A DNA stretch of 64,000 bases. Source: Bernardetia sp. OM2101. GTDB lineage: Bacteria; Bacteroidota; Bacteroidia; Cytophagales; Bernardetiaceae. The DNA is taken from positions 1,912,604-1,976,603 of the forward strand of contig NZ_CP170094.1 in NCBI RefSeq assembly GCF_042180575.1. The letters run 5' to 3'. Below the pieces are notes generated by a model. That model searched no databases. It saw only the letters and a program-made list of their open reading frames with translations, and was not told the DNA's origin. Made by a program: the position numbers and the translations under genes. Positions 5,668-20,729 of this stretch are shown here, piece after piece; within the stretch, counting starts at the first letter, position 1, and each line of letters starts with the position of its first letter.

Positions 5668-8634
5668 TTAATTCAACAGTAAAGCTAATTTATTTGCTTT
5701 TTGTTGTGTTTCTGTTTGTTCTGCAAACTGTTTTTTCAAGTCTTTCAGAATTGATTTTGCACTTGAATCATCTCCGATATTGTGCATCAGTGCTGCCAGT
5801 TCGTAAAGAGCTTCTGAGGCATATTTTGGATTGGCTTGTCTATCATTTCCTAGTTTTGAAAAACCTTCAATGGCTGCATCTACTTGCTGTTGCCCTGCCA
5901 AAATTTTGTTTTCATACAACCGAACAAAGTCATTATTTGAGTATGATTTTTTGTTTCGAATGATAGCCAAATAATCGTTTGCCGTAGCATAATCTTCTTG
6001 CTTACAATAAGTTTTAGTTAGTTTTTCCCACGCTTCTATACGTTTTGCATCATTAGGAGCTGCTTTAGCCAAACTTTTATACTGTGTAATAGCACTATTA
6101 TAATTTTCTCTACCAAATTCAATATCCCCCATATCAGAAAGTGCATCCGTTTGCATTTGTCCTCCTACTCGCTGCAAATTATTTATTGCTTGAGAATTAT
6201 CACCATAATATTGATAACTTTTACCCAAATAATAATAAATACGGTCATAATGAATAGTTCCTGCAATTTCATGAGTAGCAATAATTTTTCTAAAAATAGC
6301 TATTGCACCTGAAAATTCATTGTTTTCATAAAGTTTGAATCCTTTATCAAATTCTTGTTGAATACCATCATTAGTAGTAGGATTTGTAATTGAATTTGAT
6401 GCTGTAGAATTATTGGGGTCATAATTTGAATTATTACGAGCATATATATTTCTAAGTTCATCTATATTTTCTACCACCACACCAAAATCAGGATAATTTT
6501 CTAGTGTATTGAGAGCCATTTTTGCTTTGTCTGTATTCGGATAATTTATAATTAATGCTGTATAGTCATTGATTACATTCTTATTTTCTCCTAATCCATA
6601 CCATGCATTTCCACGACTATATAAGGCTTCTGCTAGTTTTTCACTTTGAGGATAACGCTTAATAAAATCATCCAAAAGAGCTATCACTTGCTTGCGATTG
6701 CCTTGGCTTTCATAAATTTTTGCTTTCATCACTTGCGAATATTGAGCATACAACGAATTTGGCGTTTGCATTACTTTATCAAACTGATGCATGGCTTTTG
6801 AATAATCGTTCTGAACAAAATAAATTTGTCCTAAAGAAAAATTAATATATTCTGTCTCAGAATCTCCCAAAGTCAAGGCTTTCATAAAATTGACTTCGGC
6901 TTCTTTATAATGCTTATTGACAGCATAAATTGTTGCTACACGAGTAAGAGCATCGACAGCTTTTTCTTTTGTAATTCCAGTCGGCGTAGATAAATATTCT
7001 TCCAATAAAACAAGTGCATTTTGTTTGGCAACACTACTATAATTTGCTTTATTAAAATTAATAACTCCCATTCCATATTTTGCATCAGCATAAAAACGAC
7101 TAGAAGTAGGTATTTTTTTATAATAACTTTCAGCTTCTGTTACTTTTTGAGTATGTAAAAATGCTTCTGCTGTATAAAAATTAATAAAGTTTTGAAGTGA
7201 ATCATTGAGTTGCATGTCATTTTTGAGCTGCCCAATGGCTTGATTCATTTCATTGTACGAAGATTGATTAAAAAGTTCTTTGATAGACTGCAAAGCCAAA
7301 TGAACATACATTTTTTTGATTTGGTCTTGATTCTGATTTAGATTCTTCGAATCTCTAACTTTTAAATATGCCATTGCTGTTTGTGCATCTTGGTTAGAAG
7401 CTAGAGCATCAGCAGTAAATAAAATTGCTTCTGACAAATACAGACTTTGAGGAAATTTATTTTCAAACTTTTTACTTTCACTAATCAATACACTATATTC
7501 TTCTGATAAGTACAGATTTTTAAGTTTAGAATAATAGGCTTTTTCAGCTTCTGAAGGATTAAAGGCTGCTAATTCGTCATAAGTAGAAGCAGCTTTTTTG
7601 TAGTTATTTTGTTTTTCATAAATACTTGCCTTCATGAGTAAAATAGGAGAGTAAAATGCTCCACCCGCCAGTGAAGACGTTTCATAATCCAAAAACTCAT
7701 CATAATTTTCTACTGCATAAAGCGTATTGAGATATTGATAAGCAACAGAGTCAGAAAGCTGTTTGCTATTTCGTTTATAACGTCCAAACCATTCATAAGC
7801 CAAATCATATTCTTTGTTGAGGTAAGCACACTGAGCTGCATAATAAAAAAGTTCAACATCGTGTCTTTCATTTGCTATTGAAGACAGAAAATCACTCAAA
7901 CCTTGACATTCTTCCAAATTGTAATAGGCTTTAGCAATCAGTTTGTTTGTACTTTCTGTATATTTTTTGTCTGCCTTTGCTTGATTTAGATTTTCAATAG
8001 CTTGCTCAAAACTTCCTAATTCATAATTGATAAAACCTACATAATAACTAGCTTGAGCATAATATTCATTATTTTTTGATTGCAAAGAGGCAAAAGTACG
8101 TAGAGCTTCTTTTGTTCTTCCAATTTTGAAATACGAATATGCCAAACGAAAATTAATTTCTAATTCATCTTTTTCAGTAGGACGAGATTTTTCTAAAGGT
8201 GAAAAATAATAGGCTGCTCTTCGGTAATTTTCTTCATTGTAGAAAGAGTTGGCTAAAGCAAGTTTGAGATTATCAGCATAGAGCGTTTGTTCATATTTTG
8301 AAATAAATTCAATACTATTTTTTTCTGAGTATGATTTTTTGAGATACAACTCACAAAGTCGTACATAATAAGTCGCTTCTATTTTCTTGTTTAATTCATT
8401 CTGAGGGGAAACAGAAGAGTTTTCATAAGATAAAAAAGATAAAAAAGTTTTTTGAGCGGCCTCATAATGTTGCTGTTCGAAAAGAGTAAGGGCATTTTGG
8501 AAGGTGTTATCTAGTGGAATTGAGCCTGTAAGCGCATGATGTTGGGGAAAAGCATGCGAGAATGGCACAAAAAAAACTAGAAAAAAGTACGCACACATTC
8601 CCACCACATTATTTAGTAGATTTTGGAAAGGCAT
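5668..8634 (-). CDS. Large tetratricopeptide-repeat (TPR) protein
   Basis: 988 aa with many A/Y/L-rich 34-residue TPR-like repeats (e.g. ..AYYNLGEY..A...Y..AL..). Confidence 0.75.
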   Translation of the reverse strand: MPFQNLLNNVVGMCAYFFLVFFVPFSHAFPQHHALTGSIPLDNTFQNALTLFEQQHYEAAQKTFLSFLSYENSSVSPQNELNKKIEATYYVRLCELYLKKSYSEKNSIEFISKYEQTLYADNLKLALANSFYNEENYRRAAYYFSPLEKSRPTEKDELEINFRLAYSYFKIGRTKEALRTFASLQSKNNEYYAQASYYVGFINYELGSFEQAIENLNQAKADKKYTESTNKLIAKAYYNLEECQGLSDFLSSIANERHDVELFYYAAQCAYLNKEYDLAYEWFGRYKRNSKQLSDSVAYQYLNTLYAVENYDEFLDYETSSLAGGAFYSPILLMKASIYEKQNNYKKAASTYDELAAFNPSEAEKAYYSKLKNLYLSEEYSVLISESKKFENKFPQSLYLSEAILFTADALASNQDAQTAMAYLKVRDSKNLNQNQDQIKKMYVHLALQSIKELFNQSSYNEMNQAIGQLKNDMQLNDSLQNFINFYTAEAFLHTQKVTEAESYYKKIPTSSRFYADAKYGMGVINFNKANYSSVAKQNALVLLEEYLSTPTGITKEKAVDALTRVATIYAVNKHYKEAEVNFMKALTLGDSETEYINFSLGQIYFVQNDYSKAMHQFDKVMQTPNSLYAQYSQVMKAKIYESQGNRKQVIALLDDFIKRYPQSEKLAEALYSRGNAWYGLGENKNVINDYTALIINYPNTDKAKMALNTLENYPDFGVVVENIDELRNIYARNNSNYDPNNSTASNSITNPTTNDGIQQEFDKGFKLYENNEFSGAIAIFRKIIATHEIAGTIHYDRIYYYLGKSYQYYGDNSQAINNLQRVGGQMQTDALSDMGDIEFGRENYNSAITQYKSLAKAAPNDAKRIEAWEKLTKTYCKQEDYATANDYLAIIRNKKSYSNNDFVRLYENKILAGQQQVDAAIEGFSKLGNDRQANPKYASEALYELAALMHNIGDDSSAKSILKDLKKQFAEQTETQQKANKLALLLN

Positions 8635-9028
8635 ATTTAAATTAATTATAAAAGTAACAGATAGGATATTTTTAAGAAAGTCACATCTAAGAGAATTCTA
8701 CATAATGCAAATTCGTTTATTTTATTAATTTTTGCAAATCTTGTTTTTTAATTTGATGTGGATAATAGGTTGATTATAAAACTTTTGTTGTTTTACAAGC
8801 CCTCTTGTTTTATTTTATTTTTATACATAAAATAAATTTATCATATAATTATATCATTAATAGCAACTAACTAAACGAAAATAATAAAGGACATTAACTG
8901 TGGTTTTTTTATGTATTCCGTAAAAGTAATTTCAAAAATTAAGATAAAATTAAAATAATTAAGGTAATTAGTTACTTCTTATAGCTAATTTAATAGCTTG
9001 AAAGATGGATATAAACAGGATTTTTGGT

Positions 9029-9637
9029 TTAGCTTAGAAAAGCTATCCATTCTTTATATAGTTTTTGAACAGGTAATCCCATAACATTAAAATAACTTCC
9101 ATTTATTTTTTCCACTCCTATCATTCCGAGCCATTCTTGCGCTCCATACGAACCAGCTTTATCAAAAGGTTTATATTTTTGAATATAATAATCAATTTCA
9201 TTTTGACTTAATTCTTTAAAAAACACTTCTGTTTCATCCGAAAAGCTATGTAACTTTGATTTTGTACAAATACAAACCCCTGTAATAACCAAATGTTTTT
9301 TACCTGAAAGAAGATGTAGCATTTCTCTAGCTTCAAATTTATTTTGAGGTTTGTTGAGTATTTTATCTTCAATGACTACAATCGTATCTGAAGTAATTAA
9401 AACTTCATTCAAAAAGTCTGAATTGTTTTCCTTTAATTCACTTTGTTGTGCTAAGGCTTTTCGTTCTGCTAATTTTTGAGCGACTTCTTTTGTTTGCCAC
9501 TCAGGTAAAATATCTTCCTCTACGTCTTTTACACGCTGCTCAAACTCTATATCCATAGAAGATAAAAGCTGCTTTCTACGTGGAGAACCAGAACCTAAAA
9601 TGACTTTGTAATGATGTAAAAGGTGATTTAAAAGCAT
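9029..9637 (-). CDS. maf: Maf-like nucleoside triphosphate pyrophosphatase (septum formation protein Maf)
   Basis: N-terminal ILGSGSPRRKQLL motif and length typical of Maf/YhdE. Confidence 0.85.
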   Translation of the reverse strand: MLLNHLLHHYKVILGSGSPRRKQLLSSMDIEFEQRVKDVEEDILPEWQTKEVAQKLAERKALAQQSELKENNSDFLNEVLITSDTIVVIEDKILNKPQNKFEAREMLHLLSGKKHLVITGVCICTKSKLHSFSDETEVFFKELSQNEIDYYIQKYKPFDKAGSYGAQEWLGMIGVEKINGSYFNVMGLPVQKLYKEWIAFLS

Positions 9638-11087: not shown

Positions 11088-12170
11088 ATGAAAAACTACG
11101 TAAAATTCAAGCCTAAAGACAAAAGTTTATTCTTTCCGACCTTAAAAAAGAGAGTAGATGATTATTTTATTACCAACAATATTAGTAAAAATGCAAATAC
11201 AGGTATGGTAATCAAGACGATTATTTTACTATCTGCCTATATTTTACCTTTTATTTATATTTTAGCTTACAACCCTAGTTTTATCATTTCTACTGTTTTA
11301 TGGTCAATAATGGGACTAGGTATTGCAGGAATTGGGATGAGTGTGATGCATGATGCAAATCATGGTTCGTATTCTCGTTCGGAATGGATAAACAAACTCT
11401 TAGGCAATACACTTACTTTGGTAGGTGGCTCGGTCGATAATTGGAAAGTACAACATAATTTATTGCACCATACTTTTACAAATGTAGTTCATCAAGACGA
11501 TGATATTTCTGATAAATTTGTTTTGCGTTTTTCTCCCCATACAGAAGTAAAGTGGTTTCACAAATATCAATATATTTATGCTTTCTTTTTTTATGGATTA
11601 CAAACTATTTATTGGGTTTTTGTAAAGGATTTTCTTCAATTTAAGCGTTATGTCATAAAAGGAGAAAAAAAATGGTTTACATTTATCAAATTAATTTTAT
11701 CCAAGATTATATATACTTTTGTAATCATATTACTTCCTATTGTATTTTTTGATATTCCTGTTTTGAATGTAGCCATAGGTTTTTTGGTCATGCAATTTGT
11801 AGCAGGATTAGTCCTAACAGTTATTTTTCAGTTGGCGCATACTGTTGAAGGAACTACACATCCATTGCCTAACGAAAAAAATGAAATTACACAAGATTGG
11901 GCAATCCATCAAATGAACACAACCGTAGATTTTGCACCAAAAAACAAGCTGCTCTCGTGGTATATTGGAGGTCTGAATTTTCAAGTAGAACATCATTTAT
12001 TTACCAAAATTTGTCATATTCATTATCCTGAAATCTCTAAAATAGTACAACAAACGGCTGCTGAATTTGATATTCCTTATTTAATGAATGAAAGTTTTTC
12101 TGATGCACTTATTGCTCATATAAACGCACTCAAAAGATTTGGCAAAGAAGAAAGTGGATTGTTGATTTAA
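11088..12170 (+). CDS. Membrane fatty-acid desaturase (three histidine boxes)
   Basis: HDANHG, HNLLHH and QVEHHLF histidine boxes with hydrophobic segments. Confidence 0.85.
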   Translation: MKNYVKFKPKDKSLFFPTLKKRVDDYFITNNISKNANTGMVIKTIILLSAYILPFIYILAYNPSFIISTVLWSIMGLGIAGIGMSVMHDANHGSYSRSEWINKLLGNTLTLVGGSVDNWKVQHNLLHHTFTNVVHQDDDISDKFVLRFSPHTEVKWFHKYQYIYAFFFYGLQTIYWVFVKDFLQFKRYVIKGEKKWFTFIKLILSKIIYTFVIILLPIVFFDIPVLNVAIGFLVMQFVAGLVLTVIFQLAHTVEGTTHPLPNEKNEITQDWAIHQMNTTVDFAPKNKLLSWYIGGLNFQVEHHLFTKICHIHYPEISKIVQQTAAEFDIPYLMNESFSDALIAHINALKRFGKEESGLLI

Positions 12171-12205
12171 AAAAATAAGTGTGCTGTTGTTTGGTCTAAA
12201 CTATT

Positions 12206-12245
12206 GTCAGAGTTATTTTGGATTACCAAAAACTACTGACAAAGT
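12206..12245. repeat. REP-like palindromic element, inverted copy of the 172-215 element
   Basis: ttgtcagagttattttggattaccaaaaactactgacaa is the reverse complement (with few mismatches) of the element at 172. Confidence 0.6.
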
Positions 12246-12300
12246 TTTCCTGTTGATTTGAATATATTCATCCAATTTTATAAATTCAATACTCATTTTC

Positions 12301-12702
12301 TTATAAAACCTGCTCTTTAAATATCGTTTCTAATGCTTTTTTGGGGTCACTATCTAATCCAGAGTAGGTTTTAGAACTTTGAATGATTGTGCTTCTGCTG
12401 GCTGTTAGCCATCCAAAACGTTCGGATAATTCTAATTGACCTATTTTTCCACTGGCAGAATTTCCTTCACAAACCAGTTTCCAAGCCTTTAAATAATCAT
12501 TCAATAATTCTAATTCTATTTCACATGAAAATGTCTTTAATTTTGTTTCATTAATAGTGTATTTGATGTCTAAAAACTTTTTTCGTTTACAAAAAACGAT
12601 AACACCTACATTAAAGAATTCTTCTCGTTCTACTTTTGGAACAATACGAATGATGGCGTATTTGAAGGTAAATTTGTCTTGTATATTTTGCCTATCTTGC
12701 AT
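12301..12702 (-). CDS. DUF3037 domain protein
   Basis: 133-aa protein with ...YAIIRIVPKVEREEFFNVGVIVFC... typical of DUF3037; overlaps the upstream HipA-like gene by 11 nt, suggesting an operon. Confidence 0.55.
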   Translation of the reverse strand: MQDRQNIQDKFTFKYAIIRIVPKVEREEFFNVGVIVFCKRKKFLDIKYTINETKLKTFSCEIELELLNDYLKAWKLVCEGNSASGKIGQLELSERFGWLTASRSTIIQSSKTYSGLDSDPKKALETIFKEQVL

Positions 12703-13477
12703 AATTAGCTTCTTTAACTAATAAGTCAATATTAGAGAGTTTGGTAGTTATAAATTCGATATAGGCTTCTCTCATTTCTTGTGGACTTAAACTGATAGAT
12801 TCACTCATCAACCAATCTTCTGGAATAGTCGATACAATATCAATAATTACATCTTTACTTAATAACTGCTTAATTTCGGTTGCAGCCTCAGTTAGTTTTT
12901 CGGCTTTACTTAAAAGAACGTGGTCTTTAATGAGTGGGAATGTTCTTGTCAGATGACTTTTCCAATTATCCCAGTTGTGATGAAAATAAAAACTAGCTCC
13001 ATTGTCGATTATCCATAATTCATTATTCCAATGTAATAGGTTTGTATTTTTATCTGTTCGGTCGATATTACTGATAATACTATCCAAAATTACTACTTTA
13101 GAAGCAATCATTTTATCTACATCATTTACTAAAGGGTCGTAGGTAATAGCAGACGATAAAAACTGCAAACCAAGGTTTAGACCAACACTAAATTTGAGTA
13201 AATCTTGAATTTCTTCATCAGGCTGACTCTTACTAAATGATTCATCAAGATTCATAAATACAAGTTCAGGAACTTTCAAGCCTATTGCTCGTGCCATTTC
13301 GCCACCAATAAATTCTGCGATTAAAGCCATTTTTCCTTGTCCTGCACCTCTAAATTTTAGGACATACAAAAAATCATCATCACCTTTGACAATAGCAGGA
13401 AGCGAACCACCTTCTCGTAAAGGTTGCAAATATTGAATAACATCTATGGTTCGAATATCTAATTTTTTCATCAACAA
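12692..13477 (-). CDS. HipA-like kinase-fold protein (DUF3037 partner)
   Basis: Catalytic-loop-like NIDRTDKN and metal-binding IDNG motifs resembling HipA/PI3-4K-like kinases; G-rich loop KFRGAGQGKMA near the N-terminus. Confidence 0.5.
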   Translation of the reverse strand: MLMKKLDIRTIDVIQYLQPLREGGSLPAIVKGDDDFLYVLKFRGAGQGKMALIAEFIGGEMARAIGLKVPELVFMNLDESFSKSQPDEEIQDLLKFSVGLNLGLQFLSSAITYDPLVNDVDKMIASKVVILDSIISNIDRTDKNTNLLHWNNELWIIDNGASFYFHHNWDNWKSHLTRTFPLIKDHVLLSKAEKLTEAATEIKQLLSKDVIIDIVSTIPEDWLMSESISLSPQEMREAYIEFITTKLSNIDLLVKEANYAR

Positions 13478-13629
13478 AAATACTCAAAATATAAATCTTT
13501 TTACAACTATTTTCAAAATCTGATTGCAGTTTTTACTTTATTTCATTTCTAATGATTCCATTTCAGTAAAATTATCAAAATTTTAAACTTCAATTTAGAA
13601 TTTCTAAAAGTCCTAATAATTAATTACAG

Positions 13630-13810
13630 GCAAATGCTAGGGCAAACGCACGAAAATAAAATGTGTGATTTTACACTCTTTTTGACCTATTTTTTTAGTT
13701 TTAAAATTCAAGCGAGGACGCTTGAATTAGACAAAAACTGGTTTAAGCGTCCTCGCTTGAACCAATTCTTAAAAAATAAAATTTCGTGCGTTTGCCTTAG
13801 GCAAATGCTG
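13630..13810. repeat. Nested palindromic element of about 180 bp in a divergent intergenic region
   Basis: Outer arms ggcaaacgcacgaaa / tttcgtgcgtttgcc plus repeated ggcaaatgc; inner hairpins ttcaagcgaggacgcttgaa and ttaagcgtcctcgcttgaa (reverse complements of each other). Confidence 0.8.
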
Positions 13811-13888
13811 TATTTAGACCAAAAACTAAATTTTATCCTTATTTTTGATATTCTGTTTAAATTGTTTTCGTTTTCTTACCTCATTCAC

Positions 13889-15133
13889 ATGTCAAAATTC
13901 TCTTTCATTGTTCCTTATCGCAACCGAGACACAAAAATAGCCAAACGCTGTTTGCTTTCTCTTCAGCATCAAAAACTCATTCAAAGAAATGATACAGACT
14001 ATGAAGTCATTTTTATAGATTATGGAAGTGATATTTCTATTTCGGATGAGTTAGAAGATTTTTGTGAAAATTTGGATAAAGTAAATTATGTTTTTAATGA
14101 AGTAAGAGGAATGTTTTGGTCACGTTCGGCTTCTATCAACAACGGCATTTATTTAGCAAAAGGAGAATATTGTATTATTGCTGATGTAGATATGATTTAT
14201 TCACCTAATTTTTTGGAAGAAGTCGATAAAAACGCAACTCAAAATACACTTTTGCATTATCAATGTTTTTATTTGAATGAAGACTTTGAGTATGATAAAT
14301 ATCAGGAAAATCATAGCTTAAATATTGAAAATCCGAATCAATTTGAAAAGAGTAGTAAAGAATCGGCTATGGGAATTGTCGTTATTCCAACAGAAAAACT
14401 AAAAAAAATAGGAGCTTTTGATGAATATTTTAGGCTTTGGGGAATAGAAGATAAAGATTTGAATAGACGATTATTGAACTATAAGTATGAGAAAAATAAA
14501 GATAAAAAGTTAGAAATGAAATGGCTCAATGCTGAAAAATCGCCTGTTTTTCATCAATGGCATCCAGCAGCAAATAATCCATTAGCACAACCAAAAGGCT
14601 GGGAAAAAATCGTAATTGACCATTATCACAATAAATATGATAAGCCAGAACTTACTATTCACACGAAAACAAATGGAATAGAAATAGGAAAAGTTTATAC
14701 AAAAGAAGAACGTCCTGCATTAAAAGTGTATGAAAGTACTCAATTAGATTCTAACCTCATTATTACTAATTATAGTTTTGAGTTTCCTATCGAAAAAGCC
14801 TATTCTTCTTTTGCAAGTCAGTTTATGAAATTAGAAAAAAACGAACCTCTTATTCTAAACCAATCCTTTTCTTTAATCGATGAAAAAGCAACCAGTAAAG
14901 CTGCAAAAGGAGTAAAGAAAATAAATACGCTTTTAGAAAAAGTAAAGGTTTCATACAGAATGACCGAACTTTTGAAACATACTTACGGAAATATAGATTT
15001 TTATCAAGTTCGTGATTTTCTATTTTATTTTATCGTCGATTTTGAGAATTTTATTGAAGATTATTATTACAAACAAGAAAATGGAAAAAATGGAAAGCCT
15101 GAAAAAATCACATTGATTTTATTCAAAAAGTAG
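13889..15133 (+). CDS. Family 2 glycosyltransferase. The start is placed at MSKFSFIVPYRNRD; the ORF-track start at 13634 runs through the palindromic element and is unlikely
   Basis: FSFIVPYRNRD N-terminus and DVDM (DxD) motif of GT2 enzymes. Confidence 0.65.
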   Translation: MSKFSFIVPYRNRDTKIAKRCLLSLQHQKLIQRNDTDYEVIFIDYGSDISISDELEDFCENLDKVNYVFNEVRGMFWSRSASINNGIYLAKGEYCIIADVDMIYSPNFLEEVDKNATQNTLLHYQCFYLNEDFEYDKYQENHSLNIENPNQFEKSSKESAMGIVVIPTEKLKKIGAFDEYFRLWGIEDKDLNRRLLNYKYEKNKDKKLEMKWLNAEKSPVFHQWHPAANNPLAQPKGWEKIVIDHYHNKYDKPELTIHTKTNGIEIGKVYTKEERPALKVYESTQLDSNLIITNYSFEFPIEKAYSSFASQFMKLEKNEPLILNQSFSLIDEKATSKAAKGVKKINTLLEKVKVSYRMTELLKHTYGNIDFYQVRDFLFYFIVDFENFIEDYYYKQENGKNGKPEKITLILFKK

Positions 15134-16781: not shown

Positions 16782-17957
16782 CAGTGATGTTAAGTTCTAA
16801 TTGATTTTGTATTTTTGTTTTTTTATTGACAGAATAAAATTTGGTTTATGGAATTTAGTGACTTTATCAGAAACATGGAAGATAGCCGTAGAAGTCAAGG
16901 TCAGCGTTACTCTTTTGAATCTATGATGTGGATGATTTTTTTGAGTATTGCTTGTGGCTATGAGAGTAGTCGTAAAATGGCTACTTTTTGTATTTCTTAT
17001 CAAGACGTATTTATAGATTATTTTGATTTAAAACATGGTACTCCTAGTTATGGCACTTTTCATACTTTTTTATCTTATTTAGATAGTTTATCTTTTGCAG
17101 CCTCTTTTAATACTGTTATGCTTTCTCATTCGGAATTAGAAAAAGGAGATTGGATAGCAGGAGATGGACAAACTCTATGTTCTACCGTTAGTTCTTCTCA
17201 TACAAGCAAACAAGATTATGTTAGTGTAGTGAGTTTATTTTGTCAAAAAACAGGTTTGAGTATTTTATTGAAAGATTATATGAATAAAGATAAACAAGAA
17301 TCAGAAGCTAAAATAGTTTTAGAGTTACTACTTAAGAATTTGAAAGACAAAGGCTTAATGTTTACATTGGATGCTCTACATTGCCAAAAAAAACATTAAA
17401 AAGTATTGTCGCTAGTGGAAATGACTTTACAGTTCAAGTAAAAGGAAATACTCCAAAGTTACTAGCTAGTTTAGAAACTACACTACTTACTACTACTCAT
17501 AGAGACACTCACATTATAGAAAAAAAAAGAATGGCATAAAAACAACTTGGCAATGCTACTGCTACGATTATGTGCAAAAAGTGAAAGAATGGCAGTGCAT
17601 TGAAACAATTATCGTAATTTATAAAACAGTTATTGAACCTACTAAAGTAACTCCTACTCGTCGTTATTATGTTTCAAATAAAAAACTAGAAGAGGGATTC
17701 TCAGCCAAGTCATTTAATGTAGGTATTAGAGGGCATTGGGATATTGAAAATAAAGCACACAGAAATAAAGATATTGTATTCAAACAGGATGATAACAAAG
17801 TTAAAAATAGTAAACATGCAGTAAATAGAGCTATTTTCAATACTATAGCACTCAATTTCCTAATAGATAAATATTCTGAAAATGTAATGTATAACCAAAT
17901 TTTATTTCGTACACAGTTTCAAAAAATATGCTTTAAAAAGAGAACTTAACATCACTG
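16782..17957 (+). mobile_element. ISAs1-family insertion sequence (about 1.18 kb) with 16-bp terminal inverted repeats and a 10-bp target duplication GTGAAGGGGG
   Basis: Left IR cagtgatgttaagttc (16782-16797) and right IR gaacttaacatcactg (17942-17957); gtgaaggggg repeated at 16772-16781 and 17958-17967. Confidence 0.8.
16848..17949 (+). pseudogene. ISAs1-family (H-repeat-associated) transposase, disrupted by frameshifts or stops
   Basis: N-terminal DDE_Tnp_1-assoc-like domain (..RRSQGQRYSFESMMWMIF..). The central segment ..SGNDFTVQVKGNTPKLL.. lies in another frame, and the C-terminal ..IRGHWDIENKAHRNKD.. piece in a third ORF. Confidence 0.75.
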
Positions 17958-18194: not shown

Positions 18195-19130
18195 TTATTC
18201 ATCATCTTCATCATCGTCTTCTTGCATAGCTGCAAGTTCTGCTCGTTTGGCAATTACGCCACGTTCTACATATTCGACTATTTTTGTAGCAATATCTACT
18301 TGTGTAGCCGTTTCTATTCCTTGCAAACCAGGAGAAGAATTTACTTCCAAAACCAAAGGTCCTCTATCGGAAATCAAAATATCTACACCAGCAACAGAAA
18401 GTCCCATTACTTTAGCAGCTTTTACGGCTGTTTTGCGTTCTATTTTTGAGAGTTCTATGATATTACTTTGCCCTCCTCTATGAAGGTTTGAACGAAACTC
18501 TCCTTCTTTTCCTTGTCGTTTCATCGAACCAACTACCTTTCCGTCCACTACAAAAGCACGAATATCAGCACCTCCAGCTTCTGCAATAAATTCTTGAATC
18601 AAAATATTAGCTTTCAAACCAGAAAATGCTTCGATAGTTGATTTTGCAGCTTGTGCTGTATCTGCCAAAACAACACCTAATCCTTGTGTTCCTTCTAAAA
18701 GTTTTATCACAACAGGTGTTCCTCCTACTTCACTAATAAGCATGTCGACTTCTTTGTCTTTTGGAAATTTAGCAAAAACCGTTTTAGGAATTCCGACACC
18801 TATTTTTGATAATAATTGAAGGCTACGAAGTTTGTCCCTAGATTGTGAAATACTTTGTGAACTATTGGCACAAAAAGTATCTCGCATTTCAAACTGACGA
18901 ACTACGGCTGTTCCGAAATAAGTAACAGATGCTCCAATTCTTGGAATAATGGCATCGTATTGACCCAGTAATTTTCCTTTGTAATAAATTGTTGGAAGTC
19001 CTTTTTCCATTCCAAAATGACATTTGGTATGGTCAATGACTCTAGCTGTATGCCCTTTTTGTTTGATGGCTTCGATGAGCCTACGTGTAGAATACAAAGT
19101 ATCACTTGTAGAGAGAACTGCAATTTTCAT
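18195..19130 (-). CDS. rimK: RimK-family ATP-grasp alpha-L-glutamate ligase; start placed at MKIAVLST
   Basis: ATP-grasp motifs and an acidic tail ...EDDDEDDE; its ATG overlaps the stop of the upstream gene (ATGA at 19127-19130). Confidence 0.8.
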
Positions 19131-19561
19131 TTCTTTTTCTTGGGTAGAGGCAATAAATAGGTTTGTGAACAATCTACCAAAAAACGTTTGCTTAATAACT
19201 TTCTACCAAGCAAAATTGGGTAGCGCATGTTTTTTCGGTTTGTAAGTGTAAAATAGGTCTTATAATCGCTTCGTCCGATACGTACACGAGTATGGATTTT
19301 GTAACGAGTTTGTGCTACTCCGTTTGAGCTACGCACTTTGGCTTGAGAAAACTCCTCCAATTTATATTCTTTTTCTTGATAATCTTCATGAGTGGGATCT
19401 AAAATCGAAAAACACAAAAACTGTTTTCCTTCTTCTTCTATTACCCTAATATTATGACAATGTAGTGAAGAGGTATAAGCTCCTGTATCTGTTTTGGCAT
19501 CTATTAAAGGAACTCCCAAATCAGTCAGTCCCACTTCTTCTACTCTTCCAATAATTTCCAT
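19127..19561 (-). CDS. RimK-associated putative ATP-dependent zinc protease (retropepsin-like, DUF785/Zn_protease family)
   Basis: 144-aa protein with ..[14 protein letters not shown].. immediately upstream of rimK and translationally coupled to it, the usual partner arrangement. Confidence 0.65.
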
Positions 19562-19694
19562 TTTATGCTCGTTTTTTTGTAAAAATTTTCAAAATTATAA
19601 TCTAAAACTTACTAATTTGTTTAGCTTTACAGAAAATCAATTAGGAATAGAATTAAATACCAACAACTACTATTTTATCAAAAAAGCTCAATGT

Positions 19695-20729
19695 ATGTTT
19701 AGAAAAGCACATTTTAATCTTTTATTTTGGATAGGAATAAGTACTCTTAGCCTCACTATTTTTAGTTGTCAAACAAAGAAAAGCGAAATAAGTCAGAATA
19801 GCGAATCTAGCACTAGAAATTTTGGAACAAAAGACAAAATAATTTTAGATTCAGACCCAAGTAAAGAAATTAACTTAGAAGACGACAAACAAAATTTTGA
19901 CGCTTTTATGAAAATTAGAAGCTCTATTGAAGGTTTGGATAGTTCGAATCAAACAAAAGAAAGTATTTACTATTGGGAAGGAAGTATTTATTCTTTCATT
20001 GATGGTCAGCGTAGTAAAAAGATACTGGGAATGAAAGGTTTTAGTGTATCAAGATGGCTAAAGACAGATTCTTCAAGACAATTATTGACTAGAGAAGTCG
20101 CTTTATATACAGACCCAAAAACAGGAAAGATTTTGGAGAAGATGAACAATCCTCTTTTAGATGAAAAAATTGATTCCGTGGAAATTATTCATGTTTGGAA
20201 TAACCCTGTAAATCAACGATTCCCATATAACATCAAAGAAAACTATGAACAAAACCATAAGGAAAGTACAGTTTATGGCATTCCTTATAGTGAATTAGGC
20301 GAAGATATTGTTTGTTTTTATGCTGATATTTTTCTGACTTATCCGTCACTTATCACTCGCAAAGAATTTCCTCAAAATGTACAAAGTGATTTGTATCAAG
20401 GTGCAGAATTATTTCAGTTTTTTGTAAAAAAATCAGATTTAGAAAATCCAATGCTGACAGATGTTCCTGCTACTATTTCTTGGACACGTATAGGACAATG
20501 GCTTCCTTTTATGAATATGGGTGATAGAAAAGGGTATTTGGTATATCAGTGTAGAGGTTATAAAGTTTTGGAAGGGTTTGAAGGGTTGCCAAAAGATGTA
20601 AAAGACTATGTAAGAGCAAAACAACCTATTTTTGAACACGCTCCGACAGAATATTCTCAACCAAATGAAACGAGTTGGTCATATTTTAAGAAGGTTAAGG
20701 AGAATAAAAAAATAGAGATTGGAGAATAA
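19695..20729 (+). CDS. Hypothetical lipoprotein; start placed at MFRKAHFNLLFWIGISTLSLTIFSCQ
   Basis: Lipoprotein signal peptide with Cys after the h-region; the ORF-track start at 19494 overlaps the divergent gene. Confidence 0.5.
   Translation: MFRKAHFNLLFWIGISTLSLTIFSCQTKKSEISQNSESSTRNFGTKDKIILDSDPSKEINLEDDKQNFDAFMKIRSSIEGLDSSNQTKESIYYWEGSIYSFIDGQRSKKILGMKGFSVSRWLKTDSSRQLLTREVALYTDPKTGKILEKMNNPLLDEKIDSVEIIHVWNNPVNQRFPYNIKENYEQNHKESTVYGIPYSELGEDIVCFYADIFLTYPSLITRKEFPQNVQSDLYQGAELFQFFVKKSDLENPMLTDVPATISWTRIGQWLPFMNMGDRKGYLVYQCRGYKVLEGFEGLPKDVKDYVRAKQPIFEHAPTEYSQPNETSWSYFKKVKENKKIEIGE

What the first reader, a model, noticed from the sequence alone, without database searches (positions are those of the whole stretch)
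12301..13477. Conserved DUF3037 plus HipA-like kinase two-gene module of unknown function
A 261-aa protein with kinase catalytic-loop-like (NIDRTDKN) and metal-binding (IDNG) motifs resembling HipA-type kinases overlaps by 11 nt a DUF3037 protein. The HipA-like gene is upstream on the minus strand. The pairing resembles toxin-antitoxin or regulatory kinase modules but has no characterised function that I know of.
Basis: partly seen in the sequence, partly recalled or inferred. Interest (0 to 1): 0.5.

Follow-up and report, generated by a model that had tools for sequence, protein, structure and literature searches.

The report
Short HipA-like kinase / DUF3037 gene pair
Two overlapping genes for a small HipA-type protein kinase and a DUF3037 protein are really there; relatives of this pair were recently shown to be a kinase-toxin/antitoxin anti-phage system (HipAD), but this copy is a shorter, very conserved chromosomal version that nobody has tested.

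Summary
A HipA_2-family kinase (12692-13471, minus strand, 259 aa from the ATG) overlaps by 11 nt a stand-alone DUF3037 protein (12301-12702, 133 aa).

Kinase-plus-DUF3037 pairs are PADLOC candidate PDC-M66. They were validated as DS-6/HipAD in E. coli prophages and next to Retron-Sda1. There, kinase loss or a catalytic Asp mutation abolishes defence, and DUF3037 deletion is toxic.

The window pair is a distant relative (25-27% identity). Its DUF3037 protein lacks the C-terminal half found in the validated antitoxins.

It also does not behave like a mobile defence system:
- The pair is present wherever downstream sequence exists, in 80 Bacteroidota loci.
- Nearly all partners are about 259 and 127 aa, and the ORFs always overlap.
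- No third gene is conserved with it.
- Within genera it diverges at the rate of its chromosomal neighbours.
- Its flanks are housekeeping genes.

The kinase model has a protein-kinase-like fold closest to CtkA, HipT and HipA. The DUF3037 model is confident but has no significant match among solved structures.

Most likely this is a kinase held in check by DUF3037. Whether it defends against phage or controls growth is open. I rate it a new variant of a known kind, of moderate interest.

The parts
12692..13471 (-). HipA_2-family (PF20613) Ser/Thr kinase gene, 259 aa from the ATG. The mechanical ORF extends to a TTG at 13477.
   Evidence: ORF. Pfam HipA_2 E 9.5e-22 and PADLOC PDC-M66A E 1.1e-25. 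Homologues are 259 aa. The AF2 model matches CtkA, HipT and HipA kinases.
13046..13069 (-). Catalytic-loop motif N135-I-D137-R-T-D-K141-N142. D137, K141 and N142 are invariant in 45 homologues.
   Evidence: Sequence read. Invariant columns. D137 aligns with DS-6A D139, whose D139A mutant loses defence.
12998..13009 (-). Metal-binding motif I155-D156-N157-G158. I155, D156 and G158 are invariant; N157 is conserved in at least 90% of homologues.
   Evidence: Aligns with LIDHN of DS-6A.
12301..12702 (-). Stand-alone DUF3037 (PF11236) protein gene, 133 aa. This is a short form with no C-terminal domain.
   Evidence: Pfam DUF3037 E 7e-43, full length. It matches only positions 3-128 of the 281-position PDC-M66B profile. 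It is 27% identical to residues 7-125 of the 275-aa DS-6B/HipD. AF2 model pLDDT 89.
12692..12702 (-). 11-nt overlap (ATGCAAGATAG) between the kinase stop and the DUF3037 start. It probably gives translational coupling.
   Evidence: The two ORFs overlap in all 77 loci compared: by 11 nt in 37, by 23 nt in 19, and by more in the rest, where the mechanical ORF starts further upstream.
13472..13520 (-). Promoter-like region upstream of the kinase. It holds Bacteroidota-type TTG and TAnnTTTG elements, with TATTTTTG starting 11 nt (window 13482) and TATATTTT 22 nt (window 13493) before the ATG. This is inferred only.
   Evidence: Regex scan. No experimental or comparative support.

Best explanation
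This is a two-gene operon. It encodes an active-looking HipA_2-family serine/threonine kinase and, translated from an overlapping reading frame, a small DUF3037 protein that binds the kinase and holds it inactive. It is the short form of the HipA/HipD system (DS-6, PDC-M66).

When the inhibitor is lost or displaced, by phage infection or by another stress, the free kinase phosphorylates an essential host factor and stops growth. By analogy with HipA and HipT that factor is part of the translation machinery.

Unlike the validated long forms, the DUF3037 protein here has no C-terminal DUF1829-like or DNA-binding domain. DNA binding, or any sensing done by that domain, is therefore absent.

What is shown: gene structure, family membership, conservation of the catalytic residues, strict pairing, and co-divergence of the two proteins.

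What is inferred by homology: the inhibitor role of DUF3037, kinase toxicity, the target and the trigger.
For: Family membership of both proteins: PF20613 and PF11236, and PDC-M66A and PDC-M66B.

Full-length homology to the validated system, in the same gene order. The kinase is 25% identical to DS-6A (E 7e-16) and the DUF3037 protein is 27% identical to the N-terminal domain of DS-6B (E 6e-13).

Catalytic residues are invariant in 45 homologues: K39, E53, D137, K141, N142 and D156. D137 aligns with DS-6A D139, which is needed for defence.

The model has a kinase fold. Its best matches are CtkA (E 7e-6), then HipT and HipA.

Experiments on relatives: kinase deletion abolishes defence and DUF3037 deletion is toxic (PMC12548924). 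The same paper reports DUF3037 strongly associated with HipA-like proteins. AlphaFold3 predicts a DS-6A/DS-6B interaction with ipTM 0.76-0.79 (PMC13092281).

The pairing is obligate in the loci fetched, always overlapping, and no third gene is conserved with it. Pairwise identities of the two proteins correlate at r = 0.89.
Against: Identity to the tested systems is only 25-27%, and the antitoxin's C-terminal half is missing.

The pair does not look mobile or fast-evolving:
- Flanks in the window are housekeeping genes.
- Among 150 neighbour proteins from other loci, no Pfam family recurs in more than 5 and no PADLOC model in more than 2.
- No close relative was found in viral contigs.
- Within genera it diverges like its neighbours: kinase 90.7%, DUF3037 89.0%, flank median 89.1% identity over 58 locus pairs.

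A Streptomyces nigrescens homologue (38% identity) has no DUF3037 within 4 kb. That is hard to reconcile with an obligately toxic kinase.

Nothing here measures toxicity, binding or phage resistance.
Confidence: 0.5

Rival explanations
1. The pair is a housekeeping regulatory module. The short pair is a vertically inherited, non-toxic signalling kinase. DUF3037 is its obligate regulatory subunit or its substrate, acting in normal physiology such as growth-rate or stress control. It is not an immune system or an addiction module.
For: The two proteins have near-uniform lengths (259 and 127 aa). The kinase is 50-92% identical across Cytophagales, Flavobacteriales, Saprospiraceae, Sphingobacteriales, Chitinophagales and Bacteroidales.

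Synteny is conserved within genera, and divergence equals that of flanking chromosomal genes.

Flanks are housekeeping genes in the window and in Parabacteroides distasonis, and neighbours show no defence-gene enrichment.

DUF3037 has many invariant polar residues, including E25, R26, E27, E28, N31, R95, S104, T105, Q108 and S110. This fits a conserved interface or a phospho-acceptor site.

S. daejeonense carries this short pair (L066) as well as the very different retron-linked pair that was the one shown to defend.
Against: The only experimental data for any kinase-plus-DUF3037 pair show toxin-antitoxin behaviour and phage defence.

No conserved third partner or target gene is linked to the pair.

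The identity pattern does not follow taxonomy. Bernardetia (Cytophagales) is closer to Flavobacteriaceae and Saprospiraceae (70-82%) than to the Cytophagales genera Arcicella and Spirosoma (54-60%). This suggests some horizontal transfer.

Prevalence per genome was not measured.
Confidence: 0.3
2. The pair is a split HipA of the HipS/HipT type. DUF3037 would be the structural counterpart of HipS, that is, of HipA N-subdomain-1, supplied in trans as a lid over a core kinase that lacks this subdomain. This refines the mechanism in the best explanation and does not exclude it.
For: The kinase is core-only, at 259 aa. It is shorter than the short Hip kinase families described in PMC8262856, where HipG, HipM, HipI and HipJ average 279-321 aa and HipT 291-346 aa. 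Its model matches HipT chains 7vkb_A, 8ezr_B and 7wcf.

In that paper several short Hip kinases have a downstream gene encoding a HipS-like putative antitoxin.

Confidence: 0.15
3. The ORFs are chance reading frames or decayed pseudogenes with no function.
For: None found.
Against: Both proteins give full-length, high-scoring family matches. There are thousands of homologues of constant length. Catalytic residues are invariant. Both genes are intact wherever the sequence extends far enough.
Confidence: 0.01

Closest known systems
HipAD / DS-6 (E. coli prophage HipA toxin with HipD antitoxin; Brenes & Laub 2025; DeWeirdt et al. 2026, PMC13092281)
   Same: Both have a PF20613 kinase of about 250 aa followed immediately by an overlapping gene that starts with a DUF3037 domain. 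The gene order is the same. The catalytic Asp aligns (window D137, DS-6A D139).
   Different: Identity is only 25-27%. HipD is 275 aa, with a C-terminal DUF1829-like region predicted to contact DNA, whereas the window protein is 133 aa of DUF3037 only. In phage PhiR5_1 HipAD sits next to cI, whereas the window pair sits among chromosomal housekeeping genes. DS-6A has KPSMPP where the window family has an invariant GAGQG.
PADLOC phage-defence candidate PDC-M66
   Same: Both window proteins hit the two models: M66A at E 1.1e-25 and M66B at E 6.3e-11.
   Different: The DUF3037 protein covers only positions 3-128 of the 281-position M66B profile. PDC-M66 is a candidate system, not a validated one.
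HipA-like/DUF3037 pair next to Retron-Sda1 in Sphingobacterium daejeonense (PMC12548924)
   Same: The host is also a Bacteroidota species, and the pair is likewise a kinase plus a DUF3037 protein. The paper shows it works as a stand-alone defence system with toxin-antitoxin behaviour.
   Different: Its DUF3037 protein has a C-terminal region similar to a retron DNA-binding protein. It has an HTH gene and a retron as neighbours. The available 47-aa N-terminal fragment of its kinase shares only YVIKF with the conserved short-pair kinase of the same species.
HipBST, and the short Hip kinases with HipS-like putative antitoxins (hipJS, hipIN; Gerdes et al. 2021, PMC8262856)
   Same: Both have a core kinase without HipA N-subdomain-1 and a small partner protein. 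In hipJS and hipIN the partner gene lies downstream of the kinase gene, as it does here.
   Different: The partner here is DUF3037, which has no sequence similarity to HipS and only weak structural similarity. There is no HipB-like HTH gene. The kinase belongs to PF20613, not to the classical HipA family.
Helicobacter pylori CtkA (PDB 3akk)
   Same: It is the best structural match of the kinase model (Foldseek E 7e-6, TM about 0.5).
   Different: Sequence identity is 16%. From my own knowledge, CtkA is a secreted pro-inflammatory kinase with no DUF3037 partner. The kinase model is only moderately confident (pLDDT 72.8).

Membership tests
HipAD / DS-6 / PDC-M66 (HipA_2 kinase plus DUF3037 system) | The kinase belongs to PF20613 (HipA_2) and matches the PDC-M66A model. 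| tested here: met
   Pfam E 9.5e-22 and 77.9 bits against a cut-off of 27. PDC-M66A E 1.1e-25. For comparison, DS-6A scores 257.9 bits on PF20613, so the window kinase is a divergent member.
HipAD / DS-6 / PDC-M66 (HipA_2 kinase plus DUF3037 system) | A DUF3037-domain protein is encoded immediately downstream of the kinase in the same operon. | tested here: met
   The window genes overlap by 11 nt. The arrangement is conserved in all informative loci.
HipAD / DS-6 / PDC-M66 (HipA_2 kinase plus DUF3037 system) | The DUF3037 protein is about 275-281 aa and carries a C-terminal DUF1829-like or DNA-binding domain. | tested here: not met
   The window protein is 133 aa. It matches M66B profile positions 3-128 of 281 and aligns only to residues 7-125 of DS-6B. 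Close homologues are 127 aa.
HipAD / DS-6 / PDC-M66 (HipA_2 kinase plus DUF3037 system) | The catalytic residues needed for defence are conserved (DS-6A D139). | tested here: met
   D137 aligns with D139 and is invariant, together with K141, N142 and D156.
HipAD / DS-6 / PDC-M66 (HipA_2 kinase plus DUF3037 system) | The kinase is toxic and is neutralised by the DUF3037 protein, and the pair protects against phage. | not testable with these tools
   This is known only for relatives. It needs expression and plaque assays.
HipAD / DS-6 / PDC-M66 (HipA_2 kinase plus DUF3037 system) | The pair lies in a prophage, mobile element or defence-island context. This is typical of the family but not strictly defining. 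| tested here: not met
   Window flanks are Maf, a cupin, a fatty-acid desaturase, a GT2 glycosyltransferase and an MtaB-like radical-SAM enzyme. No close relative was found in viral contigs. Neighbours in other loci show no recurrent defence family.
Canonical HipBA | The kinase is about 440 aa with N-subdomain-1, and an upstream gene encodes the HipB HTH antitoxin. | tested here: not met
   The kinase is 259 aa. Pfam returned only HipA_2 and a sub-threshold PI3_PI4_kinase match for the kinase, so neither the classical HipA family nor Couple_hipA appeared. There is no HTH gene in the operon.
HipBST / HipS-type split kinases | The partner protein is homologous to HipS (Couple_hipA, HipA N-subdomain-1). 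| tested here: inconclusive
Protein-kinase-like superfamily (Pfam clan CL0016) | The fold is protein-kinase-like, with a catalytic loop and a metal-binding Asp. | tested here: met
   Foldseek matches CtkA, Fam20C, HipT, VPS34, HipA and Rio2. The motifs are present and invariant. PF20613 is listed in clan CL0016. Caveat: model pLDDT is 72.8, with residues 78-108 below 50.

The most novel reading that the evidence does not exclude
The short kinase-plus-DUF3037 pair would be an ancient, vertically inherited growth-control module of Bacteroidota, also found in some Actinomycetota. DUF3037 would be a structurally uncharacterised trans-acting lid or pseudosubstrate of a minimal HipA-type kinase. The phage-defence HipAD systems would then be mobile offshoots that gained a C-terminal DNA-binding or sensor domain. 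That would make this the housekeeping ancestor, or a domesticated descendant, of an immune system.
Probability: 0.25. Interest if true: 0.6.

Novelty: new variant of a known kind. Interest (0 to 1): 0.38.

Why it matters
The kinase-plus-DUF3037 pairing is now a recognised anti-phage toxin-antitoxin system, but only long-form versions have been tested (an E. coli prophage system and a retron-linked operon).

Among the DUF3037 relatives closest to this protein, nearly all of the best 150 cluster representatives are short, stand-alone proteins. In Bacteroidota this short form behaves like a stable chromosomal gene pair.

If the short form is still a toxin-antitoxin defence module, it would be an unusually conserved and apparently immobile one. 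It would also show that the DUF3037 domain alone is enough to neutralise the kinase.

If it is not, it marks a case where an immune kinase module and a physiological kinase module share ancestry. That bears on how HipA-type kinases are regulated, and on persistence-like growth arrest in Bacteroidota, including gut Parabacteroides and Bacteroides.

The DUF3037 fold has no significant match among solved structures.

Tried and rejected
- NCBIfam gave no match for either protein.
- Sequence searches of the PDB gave nothing for the kinase and only noise for DUF3037, with the single sequence and with a profile.
- I looked for a conserved third gene. None exists; flanking genes are shared only within genera.
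- I looked for a defence-island or mobile context. Among 150 neighbour proteins, no PADLOC model matched more than 2 members, and no Pfam family recurred in more than 5.
- The viral-contig scan found no close relative. The phage database gave only hits at 23-27% identity, one of them a lambdoid phage annotated HipA/HipD.
- Rfam on 11500-14500 gave only sub-threshold noise.
- Kaur et al. 2020 and the Payne et al. 2024 preprint do not mention HipA, DUF3037 or M66 in their main text.
- Brenes & Laub 2025, the primary HipAD paper, is not in the library. Its details are known here only through citing papers and a GenBank annotation.
- The chance-ORF or pseudogene reading is rejected.
- Taxon names for more distant short DUF3037 clusters were mostly unavailable.
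- Prevalence per genome could not be measured, because the single genome-contig scan is pattern-limited and capped at 80 loci.

Full report
**1. Observation**

One is 12692..13477 (minus strand, 261 aa, TTG start) and the other is 12301..12702 (minus strand, 133 aa, ATG start). They share 11 nt, and the kinase is the upstream gene. The overlap reads ATGCAAGATAG: the DUF3037 start codon lies inside the last kinase codons.

NIDRTDKN is at 13046-13069 and IDNG is at 12998-13009.

Pfam assigns the larger protein to PF20613 HipA_2 (E 9.5e-22) and the smaller to PF11236 DUF3037 (E 7e-43, full profile length). NCBIfam has no model for either.

Homologues of the kinase are almost all 259 aa and begin MxK(I/L)DIRT. 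The ATG at 13471 is therefore the likely start, rather than the TTG at 13477.

A DUF3037 protein 100% identical to the window's is recorded from Bernardetia sp. OM2101, so the window is probably from that organism or a very close relative.

**2. What is already known about this pairing**

PADLOC-DB matches both proteins to a two-gene phage-defence candidate: PDC-M66A at E 1.1e-25 and PDC-M66B at E 6.3e-11.

Two papers give experimental data on relatives.

In Sphingobacterium daejeonense, a HipA-like/DUF3037 pair next to Retron-Sda1 protects E. coli against phage Bas51 independently of the retron. Deleting the kinase abolishes defence, and deleting DUF3037 gives a toxic construct. The authors conclude that the kinase is a toxin neutralised by DUF3037. 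They also report that DUF3037 is strongly associated with HipA-like proteins (PMC12548924).

In E. coli, DS-6 (renamed HipAD) protects against phage. The kinase D139A mutant loses defence. AlphaFold3 predicts a DS-6A/DS-6B interaction, plus weaker DNA contacts by DS-6B, which carries DUF3037 and DUF1829 (PMC13092281).

The lambdoid phage PhiR5_1 is annotated with 'HipA toxin' and 'HipD antitoxin' next to cI.

The primary HipAD paper (Brenes & Laub 2025) is not in the library.

**3. How the window pair relates to the validated systems**

Using the DS-6 sequences printed in Table S8 of PMC13092281:
- The window kinase is 25% identical to DS-6A over nearly its full length (E 7e-16). Window D137 aligns with DS-6A D139.
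- The window DUF3037 protein is 27% identical to residues 7-125 of the 275-aa DS-6B and has nothing corresponding to the C-terminal 150 residues.
- It likewise covers only positions 3-128 of the 281-position PDC-M66B profile.
- DS-6A is a prototypical PF20613 member (258 bits), whereas the window kinase scores 78 bits.

The window pair is thus a homologous but distant short form. All three experimentally or computationally defined references (DS-6, Retron-Sda1 and PDC-M66) are long forms.

**4. Distribution, synteny and evolutionary behaviour**

Both database searches hit the 8000-candidate ceiling. The listed kinase relatives are nearly all 259 aa and 76-92% identical. The DUF3037 relatives are nearly all 127 aa.

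A scan of one genome per GTDB species returned 80 loci at 50-90% kinase identity. They come from Cytophagales, Flavobacteriales, Saprospiraceae, Sphingobacteriales, Chitinophagales and Bacteroidales.

DUF3037 lies directly downstream and overlaps the kinase gene in every locus that has sequence there.

All-against-all clustering of flanking ORFs found no third gene conserved with the pair. Flanks are shared only within genera.

Over 58 within-genus locus pairs, mean identity is 90.7% for the kinase and 89.0% for DUF3037, against a flank-gene median of 89.1%. The pair is thus inherited in place and diverges like ordinary chromosomal genes.

Over 2926 locus pairs, the identities of the two proteins correlate at r = 0.89. 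DUF3037 diverges faster at depth: it is about 43% identical where the kinase is about 53%.

The window flanks are housekeeping genes: a TPR protein, Maf, a DUF985 cupin, a fatty-acid desaturase, a GT2 glycosyltransferase, an MtaB-like radical-SAM enzyme and RimK. There is one transposase-associated fragment about 3.4 kb away.

Among 150 non-redundant neighbour proteins from other loci, no Pfam family recurs in more than 5 and no PADLOC model in more than 2.

No close relative is found in IMG/VR viral contigs. The phage database holds only hits at 23-27% identity, one of them annotated HipA/HipD.

The pair also occurs in:
- Parabacteroides distasonis, between argH and gltA.
- Bacteroides finegoldii and Chondrinema.
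- Streptomyces sp. 2P-4, with a 131-aa DUF3037, inside a polyketide/elfamycin cluster.

A Streptomyces nigrescens homologue has no DUF3037 within 4 kb.

The identity pattern does not simply follow taxonomy. Bernardetia is closer to Flavobacteriaceae and Saprospiraceae (70-82%) than to Arcicella or Spirosoma (54-60%). Some deep horizontal transfer is therefore likely.

A profile search of 1.84 billion cluster representatives finds 2366 DUF3037 relatives at E up to 1e-3. Nearly all of the best 150 are short, about 100-160 aa. The stand-alone DUF3037 therefore predominates among the relatives closest to this protein.

S. daejeonense (type strain, L066) has the conserved short pair. The retron-linked kinase from the same species shares only YVIKF with it over the 47 residues available. 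Two lineages therefore coexist in one species, although in different strains.

**5. Structure**

The kinase model has pLDDT 72.8 and pTM 0.77, with residues 78-108 poorly predicted. It matches:
- H. pylori CtkA best (E 7e-6, TM about 0.5).
- Then Fam20C.
- HipT chains 7vkb_A, 8ezr_B and 7wcf.
- VPS34.
- HipA chains 4pu5 and 3hzi.
- Rio2.

Invariant residues in 45 homologues include:
- A Gly-rich REGGS segment (R19-S23).
- The VLK lysine (K39).
- GAGQG (42-46).
- E53.
- The catalytic D137, K141 and N142, which from my own knowledge has the same D-x-x-x-K-N spacing as HipA.
- D156.

The enzyme therefore looks active.

The DUF3037 model is confident (pLDDT 89.2, pTM 0.82). It has three strands, four helices, two strands and a C-terminal helix.

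The idea that DUF3037 replaces the missing HipA N-subdomain, as HipS does for HipT (PMC8262856), is attractive given the context. It is only weakly supported.

**6. Mechanism**

The best-supported reading is a kinase-inhibitor pair. The two ORFs are translationally coupled. DUF3037 binds the kinase and keeps it off. Loss or displacement of DUF3037 frees the kinase to phosphorylate an essential target and arrest growth.

The gene structure, family membership, catalytic competence and strict co-inheritance are shown. Binding, toxicity, the target and the trigger are inferred from homologues.

The short DUF3037 protein lacks the domain predicted to contact DNA in DS-6B. Autoregulation or sensing through that domain cannot apply here.

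The main rival is that the short form is a non-toxic physiological kinase module. It is supported by the housekeeping-like conservation, the lack of mobility, and the S. nigrescens homologue without a nearby partner.

I give 0.5 to the toxin-antitoxin-like inhibitor model, with phage defence as one possible output, and 0.3 to the housekeeping module. The HipS-like lid idea (0.15) refines the mechanism and is compatible with either model.

**7. Novelty and score**

The kind of system is known. This copy is a variant: a stand-alone DUF3037 protein in a conserved chromosomal lineage that has not been tested.

Interest is moderate (0.38). A specialist would not be surprised by the pairing. The contrast between an immune-system relative and housekeeping-like evolution, together with the structurally unmatched DUF3037 domain, makes a clear and cheap experiment worthwhile.

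Noticed in passing
window 13629-13808: A nested, near-perfect palindrome of about 180 nt lies just upstream of the kinase promoter region. Its arms are 13637-13655 with 13782-13800 and 13707-13726 with 13742-13761. As RNA it folds at -82.2 kcal/mol, z-score -11.3. The stems are GC-rich in AT-rich DNA. It occurs once in the window, is absent from all 84 fetched loci, and matches no Rfam family. It may be a MITE- or REP-like element. It is not part of the conserved module.
   Followed up: partly
window 13634-15133 (+): The mechanical 499-aa ORF has its GT2 glycosyltransferase domain starting at residue 90, and its first ~58 codons run through the palindrome above. The real start is probably the Met of MSKFSFIVPYRN at about 13889.
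   Followed up: partly
window 16848-17399 (+): A 183-aa ORF carries only a DDE_Tnp_1-associated domain. This is a transposase fragment or IS remnant about 3.4 kb from the pair, and the only mobile-element trace near it.
   Followed up: no
window 12301-12702 (-), N-terminus: The window DUF3037 protein is 133 aa rather than the usual 127. The extra six residues look like a short N-terminal duplication (MQDRQNIQDK against the consensus MQDK). A few Cytophagales relatives are also 133 aa.
   Followed up: partly
L066 (Sphingobacterium daejeonense CCUG 52468), kinase ORF 7992-8780, DUF3037 ORF 8770-9153: The species that hosts the experimentally validated retron-linked HipA/DUF3037 defence pair also carries the conserved short pair. 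The two kinases are very different over the 47 residues available. The strains differ, so coexistence in one genome is not proven.
   Followed up: partly
L083 (Streptomyces sp. 2P-4 plasmid NZ_CP095012.1), 5028-6169: A short kinase/DUF3037 pair with a 4-nt overlap sits inside a polyketide cluster. It lies between a phosphopantetheinyl transferase and ccrA, near a facT-type elfamycin efflux gene. The S. nigrescens homologue (L082) has no DUF3037 within 4 kb.
   Followed up: partly
window 19494-20729 (+) and 18195-19172 (-): A DUF1838 protein and a RimK-type ATP-grasp ligase are encoded a few kb from the pair. Neither was examined further.
   Followed up: no
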